NCBI GenBank assembly: GCA_964016885.1 | Contig: OZ024760.1 | Location: 17,732,001 to 17,796,000 of the forward strand | DNA: 64,000 nt | DNA from: Eledone cirrhosa | Lineage: Eukaryota | Direction: 5' to 3' | In this document: one piece after another, positions 27,324 to 62,208 of the stretch | How the letters are laid out: every line of letters starts with the position of its first letter | How positions within the stretch are numbered: the stretch's first letter is position 1 | Translations under genes and position numbers: made by a program | Notes under the pieces: generated by a model | What the model saw: the letters and a program-made list of their open reading frames with translations, nothing else | The model's database searches: none | Told to the model about the DNA's origin: nothing

Positions 27324-27508
27324 ATGGTCGAATCAACCACATTAGTTAACCAGACATGGTGGTATAATCCAACCGTGGACATCCATCCTCATTGGGCTAA
27401 GTTTGATCCTATCCCAGATGCTGTCTACTATTCTGTTGGTATCTTCATTGGTGTTGTTGGTATTATTGGAATCGGCGGTAATGGCATTGTCATTTACCTT
27501 TTCTCAAA
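27324..27508 (+). CDS. RHO: Rhodopsin coding exon 1 (exon begins at 27267 with 5' UTR)
   Basis: Acceptor tttcag|G at 27266/27267; AAAATGG start; donor AA|gtaagt at 27509 (phase 2). Confidence 0.97.
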
Positions 27509-30500
27509 GTAAGTATTAACTCCCTTTGAAAAAAAAAACAAAAAAAAAACATCGAAAATTTCCCCTCCCCGCCACGGTTCTATGATGCAAAACTTTGTTT
27601 TAAAGTATATTTATCTATTTATTATTTATCTGGCGCTAGGAGCATAACTTAACAAATGTTATCAAGAGAGAAAGGATATTTTAAAACTACCAGTTTGAGA
27701 GAAAGATTGGACATTTTAAAACTACAAGTTTGAGAGAAAGATTGGACATTTTAAAACTACAAGTTTGAGAGAAAGATTGGACATTTTAAAACTACAAGTT
27801 TGAGAGAAAGATTGGACATTTTAAAACTACAAGTTTGAGAGAAAGATTGGACATTTTAAAACTACAAGTTTGAGAGAAAGATTGGACATTTTAAAACTAC
27901 AAGTTTGAGAGAAAGATTGGACATTTTAAAACTACAAGTTTGAGAGAAAGATTGGACATTTTAAAACTACAAGTTTGAGAGAAAGATTGGACATTTTAAA
28001 ACTACAAGTTTGAGAGAAAGATTGGACATTTTAAAACTACAAGTTTGAGAGAAAGATTGGACATTTTAAAACTACAAGTTTGAGAGAGAAAGATAGGACA
28101 TTTTAAAACTACCAGTTTGCGAGAGAGAGGACATTTTAAAACTACCAGTTTGCGAGAGAGAGGACATTTTAAAACTACCAGTTTGCGAAAGAGAGGACAT
28201 TTTAAAACTACCAGTTTGCGAGAGAGAGGTCATTTTAAAACTACCAGTTTGAGAGAGAGAGAAAGGACATTTTAAAACTACCAGTTTGCGAGAGAGGACA
28301 TATTATAACTACCAGTTTGAAAGGGAGAGAGAGGACATTTTAAAACTGGTCTCTAAAAAAAACTACCAGTTTGCTCTATAATCATCCTTATATTTTAGCT
28401 TTCTTGCGTTTCTCACTCTCTCTCTTGGTTTTGTTTCTTAATTATTCGAGGTATCAAATACCTTTCTCAGTTTGCCATGGCTTACCAGCTCTACACAGAT
28501 GTTTAAACTGATTAAATAAATAAATAACGAAGAATGTTCTTTGGTATATATATAATATATATATGTATGTGTGTGTGTGTGTGTGTGTGTGTGTATCCCA
28601 GGTTCAATCGGGGGTAACCACAGTAAGTAAGGTGCTCAATACATATAGTATATTCCATTTTCTTACAAAAAAAAATGTGTGAAACGCAGCAAGGCGCGGG
28701 TAATTCGGCTAGTGTATGTATATATATATATATATATATATGTAAATTTTACAAAATTATTTATATTTACTTCCTGTTTCCTTTCAGAACGAAATCTCTA
28801 CAGACCCCGGCTAACATGTTTATCATCAACCTCGCTATGTCTGACTTAAGTTTCTCAGCTATTAATGGATTTCCGCTTAAAACGATATCAGCGTTTATGA
28901 AAAAGTGGATTTTCGGTAAAGTTGGTAAGTATATATAAATAAATATATTCATATTTTCAAAGTGAATTTTTTGTCAACCAAACTCTTAATTCTTTTTGTT
29001 AATTACGAAGAATACTTATGAAATATATATATATATATGTAGGCCTAGGCATGGTTCTGGATTCAGTCCAACTTTGTAACACCTTGGACGGGTGTCTTCT
29101 ACTATAACATCTGTAAACTTTCATCTACCTAGGTGCCAAATAGTGACATACAATTTGGAACATACATATCTCTAGATAGAACTGCCACTTCTCCGAATTG
29201 AGAGATCACAGCTCCGATATTATGGACTTGTGGTTAGAATGTCTCAGGAAAGAATCACTGGACATATTTGTAGCTCAGAGATCAGAAAGTCACTTCAGGT
29301 AGAGCCACTACTTCTCAAAATTGAGAGATCACAGCTCCGATATTATGGACTTGTGGTTAGAATGTCTCAGGAAAGAATCGCTTGACAGATTTGTAGCTTG
29401 GAGATCAGACAATGACTCCAGGTAGAGCCACTACTTCTCTGAATTGAGAGATTACAGCTCCGATATCATGAGCATGTGGTTAGAATGTTTCAGGAAAGAA
29501 TTACTGGATAGATTTTACGGGCAAAGCCAACTGGTAGGAGACCCAGGGGTAGACGAATAACTTCCATGAGCTTGGCTGGTCTCGCTTGGGGATCCAGCTG
29601 GATCAGTTGGAGCCAGTTGCTTCTGACAGGACCTGCTGGAAGGAGTGTTTGAGGACTCTGTCCCCAAGACCCTCTCAGGAATAAGTGGGCGAAGAAGACG
29701 AGAAGATACAATAATTTTTATATATTAAGATAATGTATATAACATCTTAACTATAAGAAATGAGTGCGGGACTGCGTCCAGAATATTTTTTTTATCCCGT
29801 TTGTATATTACATAATTTATGAACATATATTTCCGTCGCTAATTTTCTCCTAATGCAGTTTATATATAATATCGTCTTTTTTTAATGTATCATGGATTAC
29901 TTTACTGATTACAGAAGAGAGTATAACACAAACTCTCTTCAATTTGTGTGGATATTGTCAATTACGAATTTATTTGACATATCATATCTACATGCATGTA
30001 TATTTGCGTATAATATCAATATACACACTACACATGACAGCAGAAAACCACACGAAGGGTATTTTTTCTGCTAGTAATAGTTAATATATTTTTTGTTATA
30101 TACTTTCTGTATGGTGGTTTGGCAGTATCGGTAGAGGGTCTGACACCATGCTTTGCAGCAAAAGAGTTACGGCCCTTTATGGTCTGAGTTCAAATCCCGC
30201 CGAGGTTAACTTTGCCTTTCCTGCTTACGAGGTCGATAAAATAAAGCACCAGTAATACACAGGGATAATTGCTGGCCTTGTGCTAAAAGTAGAAACACTT
30301 ATTAATTCAGTCCCCTCCTCCTTTTAATCTCTTCAACATTCCTTTCCATGTATCACACATTATCTTATTTAAAATATCTTAATTAAAATATACATCTAAT
30401 TTTTAAAATTTTCTTATTTAAAAATATCTTATTTTTAAATATATATTTTCCATATAATTAATTCAGCCCTCGTATCCTTTAAATCTCCAATCGTTGAAAT

Positions 30501-60700: not shown

Positions 60701-62208
60701 CGGAGAACTTCATTGCTAAACAACGACCAATGCCGCTGCCTACAAACAGATAGATATAATACTACATGAGAGGGAGAGAGAGAGAGAGATGGTGAGAGAG
60801 AGGGTGGAGAGGGGAAGAAAGGGAGAGTGTAGAGAGAGAGAGAGAGTGGAGAGAAGGAAAGTAGACAGAGACAGAGAGGAGACAGAGAGAGTGAGAGAGA
60901 GAGAGGAGACAGAGAGAGAGAGGAGACAGAGAGAGTGAGAGAGAGAGAGGAGACAGAGAGAGAGAGGAGACAGAGAGAGTGAGAGAGAGAGGAAGGGTTA
61001 GAGAGAAAGAGGGGTTAGAGAGAAATGGGAGAGTGGAGAGAGGGAGAGAAGGGGTGGGGAGAGAGGGAGAGTGGAGAGGGGTAGAGAGGGGGTAGAGAGG
61101 GGAAAGAAGGGAGAAAGAGGGAGAGAGCGGAAGAGAGAGAGAGAGTGGAAATTGGGGGAGGGGGAGGGAGAGAGAGGAGTGAGGAATGAGAGAGAGGGGT
61201 GAAGAATAAGAGAGAGGGGAGAGAAGGAGAGACAGCTGACCTTCCTCTGTAAAATCAGATCGATAGCAGCCTGTCTGAAGAAGGATCCTTGCGAGGTAGG
61301 GTGGGTTGGCTGGTGCAGTGTGTGTCGCTGGCCATTGTCCGTGGAAATGCCTTTGCCATTTTGTTTGCGGGGCGCAGCCGACACACAGCTCTGACCTCGG
61401 TGTAGAGTCTGTTACCCTTTTCCCTTCCCCCATGTTTTCCTTTGTTCTATAGTCCTTGCTCTTTCCTTCCCATTTATGGCATCTATAGTCCTTTCCAAAC
61501 AGGTGTAGAGTCTGTCCCCCTCTCTCCTTTCTTTCCCCTCTCTGACCTAGGTGTAGAGTCTGTCCCCCTCTCCCCTTCCTCCTTTCTTTCCCCTCTCTGA
61601 CCCAGGTGTAGAGTCTGTCCCCCTCTCTCCTTTCTTTCCCCTCTCTGACCTAGGTGTAGAGTCTGTCCCCCTCTCCCCTTCCTCCTTTCTTTCCCCGCTC
61701 TGACCTAGGTGTAGAATCTGTCACCCTCTCTCCTTCCCCCTGTCTTTCCTCCTTTGGTCTAGTAGTCTTTGCTCTTCTCCCACCTTTTCCTCTCATGCCA
61801 TTTATAGTTCTTTCCAATACTGTTCTCTTTTTTCTGTATGTTTATATAACTTTATTACGAAATTAAACTTTACATTACATCAACGAAACGAAACGAAAAC
61901 TGTTACATACCTGCTCCGGTGATTAGTACATTGTAACCACCCACCTTCTTCGATTGGTATTTTACTGGTATAATTAATTTAAAAGCTGCTTCTAGAAACA
62001 GATATAGTAGTCCAATCTGTGTCCTTATGATGTCCCATATCAATTCCAAATACATCCGAACGTTTGAACTTTCAATAATATTCCCCTCATTGGAATAATT
62101 CTGGTTGACTGTCGTAGAAACATTGTTCTCTGTACAGTGAGCAACCTCTGTATGGATACTATTCACCATTTGAGGCATCTGGTTCTCGGAATTAGCAGCA
62201 GCAACCAT
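51479..62208 (-). CDS. Retinol dehydrogenase, SDR16C family (RDH10 / epidermal RDH2-like); exons 62208-61911, 60739-60555, 57033-56902, 55875-55631, 53983-53858, 51716-51479; 407 aa
   Basis: Spliced ORF of 1224 nt with all GT-AG phases compatible. Motifs: TGAGSGIG (Rossmann), [24 protein letters not shown], catalytic Ser (ISSTAG), [24 protein letters not shown]. Confidence 0.93.
52145..52365 (+). mobile_element. Hammerhead-bearing short element (inverse copy at 59165-59410; tail fragment at ~25355-25420)
   Basis: Near-identical ~220-nt copies in opposite orientation, (TA)n-flanked. Confidence 0.65.
52248..52283 (+). ncRNA. Minimal hammerhead, same family as 59271-59306, with GUG at the cleavage triplet
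   Basis: TCTT-CTGATGA-A-GGAC tagc GTCC-GAAA-CG-TG-AAGA. Confidence 0.55.
52878..53200 (+). mobile_element. RTE LINE 3' end, same family as 62800-63735
   Basis: [39 protein letters not shown]; (GAT)n tail. Confidence 0.9.
53392..53814. mobile_element. piggyBac-like MITE expanded by an internal 72-bp tandem repeat
   Basis: Same TIRs and TTAA flanks; 72-bp unit repeated ~4 times. Confidence 0.8.
53858..53983 (-). CDS. RDH coding exon 5
   Basis: tttccag|[44 protein letters not shown]|gtaagt. Confidence 0.95.
55631..55875 (-). CDS. RDH coding exon 4 (catalytic S and YxxxK)
   Basis: ccaccag|[41 protein letters not shown]...GAKS-AG|gtaggt. Confidence 0.95.
56902..57033 (-). CDS. RDH coding exon 3
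   Basis: tttgcag|[44 protein letters not shown]|gttagc; 132 nt. Confidence 0.95.
58545..58780 (-). mobile_element. RTE-like LINE 3' end
   Basis: LLLWNP...[36 protein letters not shown]; (GAT)n tail. Confidence 0.7.
59271..59306 (-). ncRNA. Minimal type I hammerhead (palindromic ACGT stem III), sense to the RDH pre-mRNA
   Basis: TCTT-CTGATGA-A-GGAC tagc GTCC-GAAA-CG-TT-AAGA. Confidence 0.65.
60555..60739 (-). CDS. RDH coding exon 2
   Basis: tttgtag|GC AGC GGC ATT GGT...GAT AAG|gtaaga; [24 protein letters not shown]...YRTADK. Confidence 0.95.
61495..61740. repeat. ~50/57-bp alternating tandem repeat
   Basis: CTCTGACCTAGGTGTAGAGTCTGTCCCC units, ~5 copies. Confidence 0.85.
61911..62208 (-). 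CDS. RDH coding exon 1 (first in-frame ATG at 62208; possible acceptor at 62221)
   Basis: MVAAANSEN...[49 protein letters not shown]|gtatgt. The true start codon is uncertain. Confidence 0.85.

What the first reader, a model, noticed from the sequence alone, without database searches (positions are those of the whole stretch)
27324..62208. Visual rhodopsin lies tail-to-tail with an RDH10/SDR16C-type retinol dehydrogenase
Seen: the only two genes found in the window are the r-opsin (+) and an SDR16C enzyme (-), with stop codons ~19.8 kb apart. Established: vertebrate RDH10 oxidises retinol, including cis isomers, to retinal with NAD+, and it carries the LWDIN acidic motif that is also present here. 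Cephalopod chromophore recycling is usually described through retinochrome and RALBP. Inference: this enzyme may supply retinal to the neighbouring pigment, and the linkage could be a co-regulated opsin-chromophore microcluster.
Basis: partly seen in the sequence, partly recalled or inferred. Interest (0 to 1): 0.75.

Follow-up and report, generated by a model that had tools for sequence, protein, structure and literature searches.

The report
Octopus rhodopsin's retinol-dehydrogenase-like neighbour
The octopus visual pigment gene sits 20 kb from an intact gene of the retinol-dehydrogenase family, but squid cell data suggest this enzyme is likely used in many cell types, so the pairing is likely incidental rather than a dedicated vision gene cluster.

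Summary
An intact octopod rhodopsin (456 aa, +) and a six-exon SDR16C dehydrogenase (407 aa, -) lie tail-to-tail, stops 19,849 bp apart, with no other gene found. The enzyme is one of four SDR16C paralogues in this genome. It belongs to a coleoid clade and scores closer to RDHE2/SDR16C6 than RDH10, though its placement is unresolved. The acidic WD[IV] motif is family-wide (279 of 381 homologues). In a Loligo single-cell table the probable orthologue marks basement-membrane cells and 13% of other cells, and is not listed for photoreceptors. In favour: two SDR16C-like genes do mark bobtail-squid photoreceptors, but I could not show that either is this paralogue. Same-chromosome linkage probably holds in another Octopus. 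Adjacency in squids is untested. Verdict: probably a broadly used NAD+-type retinol/lipid-alcohol dehydrogenase that happens to neighbour rhodopsin. A co-regulated microcluster is possible (about 12%) and cheap to test.

The parts
27324..27508 (+). Rhodopsin (canonical Gq r-opsin) coding exon 1
28788..28924 (+). Rhodopsin coding exon 2
   Evidence: AG/GT sites read from the printed junctions
30582..31630 (+). Rhodopsin coding exon 3: TM3-TM7, retinal-binding Lys in FAKASA (motif role recalled), XYPPX tail, stop 31628-31630
31631..51478 (.). 19,848-bp spacer between the two stop codons: both 3' UTRs (AATAAA at 32207-32901 and at 51289/51262), microsatellites and interspersed repeats, no gene found
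51479..51716 (-). SDR16C exon 6 with stop and a lineage-variable C-terminal tail
53858..53983 (-). SDR16C exon 5
   Evidence: junction seen in relatives' contigs
55631..55875 (-). SDR16C exon 4: catalytic S227, Y240, K244
56902..57033 (-). SDR16C exon 3: NNAG, N199
60555..60739 (-). SDR16C exon 2: end of the glycine-rich cofactor loop, Asp122 (LWDIN)
61911..62208 (-). SDR16C exon 1: about 50-aa N-terminal extension shared with octopod and putative decapod orthologues, then a moderately hydrophobic segment

Best explanation
The minus-strand gene is an intact SDR16C dehydrogenase of a coleoid-specific paralogue group, predicted to be a membrane-associated NAD+-dependent enzyme that likely oxidises retinol or similar lipid alcohols in many cell types, and its place beside rhodopsin is likely incidental. 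Shown: gene structure, catalytic and cofactor motifs, four paralogues, a coleoid clade, and spliced transcripts in relatives. Inferred mechanism: the N-terminal hydrophobic segment anchors it to ER or lipid droplets. Asp122 selects NAD(H), so it would run in the oxidative direction. S227/Y240/K244 would transfer hydride from the alcohol. Any retinal made would serve general retinoid or lipid metabolism. Inferred history: duplication in the coleoid stem, with rearrangement leaving it between rhodopsin and R-spondin.
For: Four SDR16C loci on C21, C15, C4 and C28 share most intron positions. The window gene, Argonauta P0003 and putative decapod P0198/P0199 form a clade at 100/100 (SH-aLRT 100). 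In Loligo vulgaris the transcript best matching XP_029650154.1 marks cluster 24 (28.5% vs 13% of other cells), among laminin, collagen IV and perlecan markers. The only other 'retinol dehydrogenase' row of that table is in Cl30; none is in photoreceptor Cl32. XP_029650154.1 is probably the orthologue: it is 29 accessions from rhodopsin XP_029650125.1, wntless from the same accession block maps to C21, and C21 has one SDR16C hit. One decapod-type orthologue sequence was seen on 135 Logan contigs, which hints at wide expression. The orientation is convergent, with no shared promoter. None of the 3 cephalopod microsynteny rows with an SDR shows a 7TM annotation, and PF02162 and PF15913 are absent from that table. 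Most SDR16C enzymes prefer NAD(H) and oxidise retinol (PMC7022914 passages).
Against: Two SDR16C-like genes are strong photoreceptor markers in E. berryi: EB15318 'Rd10b', 37.8% vs 1.1% in r1, and EB11469 'Rdh10', 43% vs 2.6% in r2. The partial O. bimaculoides orthologue of the window gene is labelled RDH10-B-like, so EB15318 could be this paralogue. The Loligo table holds only the top 100 markers per cluster from pre-hatchling heads, with a 54%-BUSCO transcriptome, so absence from Cl32 is weak, and the orthology there rests on a best-hit label. Same-chromosome linkage seems retained in a second Octopus. The spliced orthologue co-occurs with rhodopsin in 4 of 8 runs (tissue unknown). Substrate is untested.
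Confidence: 0.6

Rival explanations
1. One reading: a co-regulated opsin-chromophore microcluster. The enzyme would oxidise all-trans or 11-cis retinol to retinal in photoreceptors and feed RALBP/retinochrome and rhodopsin, with the linkage kept by shared retinal enhancers.
For: Immediate adjacency with a low single-gene prior. SDR16C-like photoreceptor markers exist in bobtail squid. RDHs are co-expressed with r-opsin in chiton photoreceptors, orthology unresolved (PMC8628405 passages). Vertebrate RDH10 and RDHE2-type enzymes accept 11-cis retinol, and RDH10 works with RGR. Same-chromosome linkage is probable in a second Octopus.
Against: The probable Loligo orthologue is broad and non-photoreceptor. 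No SDR marker has an E. berryi id near rhodopsin EB15884 (prefixes EB1584-EB1591 searched), although this id argument failed calibration (see Tried and rejected). Promoters lie at opposite ends, 35 kb apart. No opsin-like hit at E<=1e-8 lies on C4, C15 or C28, so there is no sign of an old opsin-SDR block.
Confidence: 0.12
2. The enzyme does help supply the eye with retinal, but from vascular, glial or support cells, as one of several SDR16C enzymes. The linkage has no regulatory role.
For: Loligo cluster 24 has basement-membrane and Ets markers that could be vascular or glial (my reading; the passages I saw do not name it). The family is retinoid-active.
Against: There is no localisation of cluster 24 to the eye and no activity data.
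Confidence: 0.2
3. The substrate is not a retinoid but a steroid or other lipid alcohol, as for HSD17B11/13-type members on lipid droplets. This is compatible with incidental linkage.
For: The AU test does not reject grouping with HSD17B11/13 (p 0.36). The closest solved structures are HSD17B13 and HSD17B11. The clade is on a long stem with its own N-terminal extension.
Against: HSD17B11/13 score lowest among the vertebrate references (212-213 bits vs 281-298 for RDHE2/16C6), though the HSD references were halves cut from fused goat models. No RDH10 or RDHE2 chain appeared among the PDB hits, so the PDB ranking cannot discriminate.
Confidence: 0.25

Closest known systems
Vertebrate RDHE2/SDR16C5 and SDR16C6
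   Same: Best pairwise match (47-54% identity). Same cofactor loop, acidic residue and catalytic tetrad.
   Different: No supported orthology in the tree. The window protein has an extra ~50-aa N-terminus and ~55-aa C-tail. Activity untested.
Vertebrate RDH10 (SDR16C4)
   Same: Same family, LWDIN motif, 43% identity. Has a known role with RGR in Muller cells.
   Different: Scores lower than RDHE2 and lacks the insertion seen in P0334. The C4 paralogue scores relatively closer to RDH10.
HSD17B11/HSD17B13
   Same: Closest solved structures (E 2.6e-68 for the Argonauta orthologue).
   Different: Lowest pairwise score among the vertebrate references.
Cephalopod rhodopsin-retinochrome-RALBP system
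   Same: The rhodopsin here is its canonical pigment. RDH involvement has been suggested but is called speculative.
   Different: No dehydrogenase is assigned to it in the passages read, and no genomic clustering is described there.
Coleoid-specific microsyntenies (PMC9023564)
   Same: Novel neighbourhoods after genome reorganisation, some co-expressed (PMC13652810 passages).
   Different: This pair was not found in the published table by Pfam-id search. The rows I saw held four or more genes, so a pair could be missed.

Membership tests
Classical SDR / SDR16C | TGxxxGxG cofactor loop, NNAG, N-S-Y-K tetrad | tested here: met
   T97-G104, N174, N199, S227, Y240, K244; PF00106 over cut-off in exons 2 and 4; tetrad stated for SDR16C in PMC9859523
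Classical SDR / SDR16C | Closest named relatives are SDR16C members | tested here: met
NAD(H)-preferring SDR16C | Acidic residue after beta-2 (rule recalled) | tested here: met
   Asp122; family-wide, WD[IV] in 279 of 381 homologues. Cofactor use itself not assayed.
RDH10 (SDR16C4) orthologues | Clade with vertebrate RDH10 | tested here: inconclusive
   Not joined in the ML tree; AU p 0.248 does not reject; pairwise scores favour RDHE2/16C6
RDHE2/SDR16C5 orthologues | Clade with vertebrate RDHE2 | tested here: inconclusive
   Sister to a large RDHE2+HSD17B+protostome group at 80/82 or to paralogue C15 at SH-aLRT 80
HSD17B11/13 orthologues | Clade with HSD17B11/13 | tested here: inconclusive
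   Not joined in either tree; AU p 0.363
Retinol dehydrogenases (functional) | Oxidises retinol with NAD+ | not testable with these tools
   Needs an enzyme assay
Canonical cephalopod Gq rhodopsin | High identity to cephalopod rhodopsins, XYPPX tail | tested here: met
   95% to O. vulgaris over exon 3; PF02162
Co-regulated gene microcluster | Adjacency conserved across lineages | tested here: inconclusive
   Same chromosome probable in a second Octopus; decapod id test failed calibration; no relatives' genomes held
Co-regulated gene microcluster | Co-expression in the same cells | tested here: inconclusive
   Against: Loligo markers. Possibly for: E. berryi markers of unknown paralogue. No RNA holder listed for this species.
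Co-regulated gene microcluster | Shared promoter or enhancers | tested here: inconclusive
   Convergent layout excludes a bidirectional promoter; shared upstream 11-12-mers are all simple repeats; distal enhancers not testable

The most novel reading that the evidence does not exclude
Coleoids evolved a dedicated SDR16C paralogue, with its own conserved N-terminal extension, that is the missing retinol dehydrogenase of the rhodopsin-retinochrome cycle. It is kept beside rhodopsin under shared photoreceptor enhancers: an opsin-chromophore microcluster that parallels RGR/RDH10 in vertebrates.
Probability: 0.12. Interest if true: 0.62.

Novelty: new member of a known kind. Interest (0 to 1): 0.3.

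Why it matters
How cephalopods make new chromophore from vitamin A is open. Reviews call RDH involvement speculative. If this neighbour were the retinal enzyme, it would name a testable component and give a rare animal example of a receptor clustered with its cofactor enzyme. I found no paper describing this linkage in five full-text searches (the library lacks most subscription journals). Even if the linkage is incidental, the work yields four defined SDR16C paralogues, of which two family members are photoreceptor markers in squid. That is a short candidate list for the cephalopod visual cycle.

Tried and rejected
(1) Expression in this species: no RNA holder listed. This is no evidence either way. 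(2) Contigs of relatives on SDR exon 4: covered in X2, X6, X12 and X17, no cover in X1, X10, X11 and X21. Tissue is unknown, RNA status is a guess, and gaps prove nothing. (3) E. berryi gene ids as a position proxy. S-crystallin ids run in order, but calibration failed: id-neighbours of rhodopsin mapped to C6 (MKLN1) and C4 (TMEM141), and neighbours of EB11469 to C5 (weak) and C20. NPRL3, RRP5 and NASP searches found nothing. NIPBL, 12 ids from EB15318, has copies on C15 and C1, which mildly points EB15318 to the C15 paralogue. I do not use ids to claim broken synteny. (4) O. bimaculoides accessions (XP_014782988 vs XP_014785469) are far apart, but the SDR model is a 187-aa fragment, so this is uninformative. 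(5) AU tests rejected none of three placements. The first tree is a quick search. The second used 32 of its 65 rows plus 14 new ones, LG+G4. No named DHRS3 was available; the outgroup was three unnamed LWGRT-type proteins that I call DHRS3-like from recall. (6) Promoter word comparison and a recalled fly rhodopsin core element: nothing. The sigma-70 scan does not apply to an animal. (7) Earlier scan notes: none. (8) PMC4414673 on SDR16C origins was not held. (9) No fold or complex was predicted, because it would not decide substrate or regulation.
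Full report
1. Observation. Splicing by coordinates gives a 456-aa rhodopsin on + (coding exons 27324-27508, 28788-28924, 30582-31630) and a 407-aa SDR on - (six exons, 62208 to 51479, all GT-AG). Stops are 19,849 bp apart. The window is G000:C21:17732001-17796000 in a 3.0-Gb genome. Rhodopsin exon 3 is 95% identical to Octopus vulgaris rhodopsin, so this is an octopod. None of 46 other window ORFs scanned passed a Pfam cut-off, and Rfam found nothing. Beyond the SDR 5' end, the next gene recognised is R-spondin, about 66 kb away (Furin-like_2 and TSP1_spondin). 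On the other side, a 25-bp satellite of at least 146 kb ends about 43 kb upstream of rhodopsin.

2. The enzyme. It has the glycine loop (97-104), Asp122, NNAG and N199/S227/Y240/K244. WD[IV] occurs in 279 of 381 SDR16C-like homologues, so the motif predicts NAD(H) but says nothing about RDH10 or retinol. The genome holds four SDR16C loci: C21 (this gene), C15, C4 and C28, with most intron positions shared. The window gene forms a fully supported clade with Argonauta P0003 and two unnamed, probably decapod, proteins (100/100). These share an N-terminal extension absent from other molluscan members. C15 is the conservative copy (exon 4 is 72-82% identical to its best hits, mostly other molluscs). 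C4 pairs with a cuttlefish protein. C28 falls with LWGRT-type proteins that I read as DHRS3-like from recall. Against named vertebrate proteins the window enzyme scores 281-298 bits for SDR16C6/RDHE2, 258-273 for RDH10 and 212-213 for HSD17B11/13 halves. AU tests reject none of three placements: with RDH10 (p 0.25), with HSD17B11/13 (p 0.36), with C15 (p 0.33). 'SDR16C, RDHE2-like' is justified; 'RDH10' is not shown.

3. Expression. No RNA holder was listed for this species. Spliced orthologue contigs with matching junctions occur in 4 of 8 rhodopsin-holding runs of relatives, tissue unknown. In Loligo vulgaris head single-cell data (PMC9839350; passages, section 5 and supplement rows seen), the transcript labelled XP_029650154.1 marks cluster 24 at 28.5% vs 13% elsewhere, among laminins, collagen IV and perlecan. 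The only other retinol-dehydrogenase row is in Cl30, and photoreceptors are Cl32. That accession is 29 from rhodopsin XP_029650125.1 (that both come from one RefSeq annotation despite different species labels is my recall). Wntless from the same block maps to C21:14.74 Mb here (the wntless call over TMEM181 is partly from recalled motifs). So it is probably the orthologue and probably on the rhodopsin chromosome. Accession order is not strictly positional, so adjacency is not shown. Against my reading: in Euprymna berryi adult retina (PMC12240821; passages, section 9 and supplement rows seen, file cut), EB15318 'Rd10b' marks photoreceptor r1 (37.8% vs 1.1%) and EB11469 'Rdh10' marks r2 (43% vs 2.6%). 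r2 is the primary type, with rhodopsin EB15884 (bioRxiv 2022.05.26.490366 passages). Full-length window-clade proteins hit SDR16C6/RDHE2 first, C28 hits RDH10 first, and C4 scores nearly level. These labels therefore fit C28 or C4 better, but the O. bimaculoides fragment of the window clade hits RDH10-B first. A NIPBL copy points EB15318 to C15. The identity is open.

4. Synteny. No relative's genome is held. The E. berryi id test failed calibration. The microsynteny table of PMC9023564 (supplement searches only) has no PF02162 or PF15913, and its three cephalopod SDR rows show no 7TM gene. No opsin-like hit lies on the other paralogues' chromosomes at E<=1e-8. Promoters face away from each other, 35 kb apart, and share only simple-repeat 11-12-mers.

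5. Mechanism. Most likely (0.6): a membrane-associated, NAD+-dependent retinol/lipid-alcohol dehydrogenase with broad expression, placed beside rhodopsin by rearrangement. Structure and motifs are shown; cofactor, substrate, localisation and history are inferred from family knowledge (PMC7022914 and PMC3184775 passages). Rivals: a co-regulated microcluster (0.12), eye supply from non-photoreceptor cells without regulatory linkage (0.2), and a non-retinoid substrate (0.25, which overlaps with the best reading).

6. Known context and novelty. Rhodopsin and SDR16C are known kinds. RDH expression in chiton photoreceptors and a speculative role in the molluscan cycle are in print (PMC8628405 and PMC9776813 passages), as is RGR with RDH10 in vertebrates (PMC7910522 passages). 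I found no description of this linkage in searches. Passages of the argonaut preprint, PMC13652810, PMC9859523 and PMC12965858 added nothing on it. By my arithmetic such a neighbour is unlikely for one named gene (0.03-0.5%) but expected somewhere in a genome-wide scan.

7. Verdict. A real adjacency and a reasonable lead, but the evidence at hand leans to coincidence. Interest 0.3; 0.62 if the microcluster were confirmed.

Noticed in passing
L019:4797-8798 (G000:C21 about 17.861-17.865 Mb, minus strand): R-spondin exons (two furin-like, one TSP1) form the next gene recognised beyond the SDR 5' end; wntless lies 3 Mb away on the same chromosome.
   Followed up: partly
L023-L032, L034, L035 (G000:C21 at least 17,570,001 to about 17,716,800): A 25-bp-unit satellite array of at least 146 kb ends about 43 kb upstream of the rhodopsin start, near the middle of the 35.4-Mb chromosome.
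   Followed up: partly
G000:C15 about 11,305,150 and 11,299,050 (L004): The C15 SDR16C paralogue has two alternative last coding exons; Mya isoforms P0226/P0228 also differ only in the last exon, hinting at an old alternative C-terminus.
   Followed up: no
G000:C4:223.22-223.24 Mb (L005-L007) and G000:C28:117.57 Mb (L009-L010): C4 scores relatively close to RDH10, and C28 groups with DHRS3-like proteins. With two SDR16C-like photoreceptor markers in squid, an RDH10/DHRS3-like pair in cephalopod retina is worth testing.
   Followed up: partly
L049:1648-7995 (G000:C1 about 336.78 Mb, minus strand): An intronless NIPBL copy with an open frame of 2,116 aa exists besides the intron-containing gene on C15; a 'Nipbl-2' is a photoreceptor r1 marker in E. 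berryi.
   Followed up: partly
window 22375-24604 and 27674-28347: A 2.2-kb tandem array (145/69-bp units) 2.7 kb upstream of the rhodopsin start, and a 35-bp minisatellite (19 copies) in rhodopsin coding intron 1.
   Followed up: no
window about 27140-27268: Probable untranslated first exon and short 5' UTR intron of rhodopsin (donor-like site near 27191, acceptor near 27267), read by eye.
   Followed up: no
G000:C1:63136817-63137389: A second opsin-like frame, 33% identical to rhodopsin TM3-7, possibly the non-canonical r-opsin.
   Followed up: no
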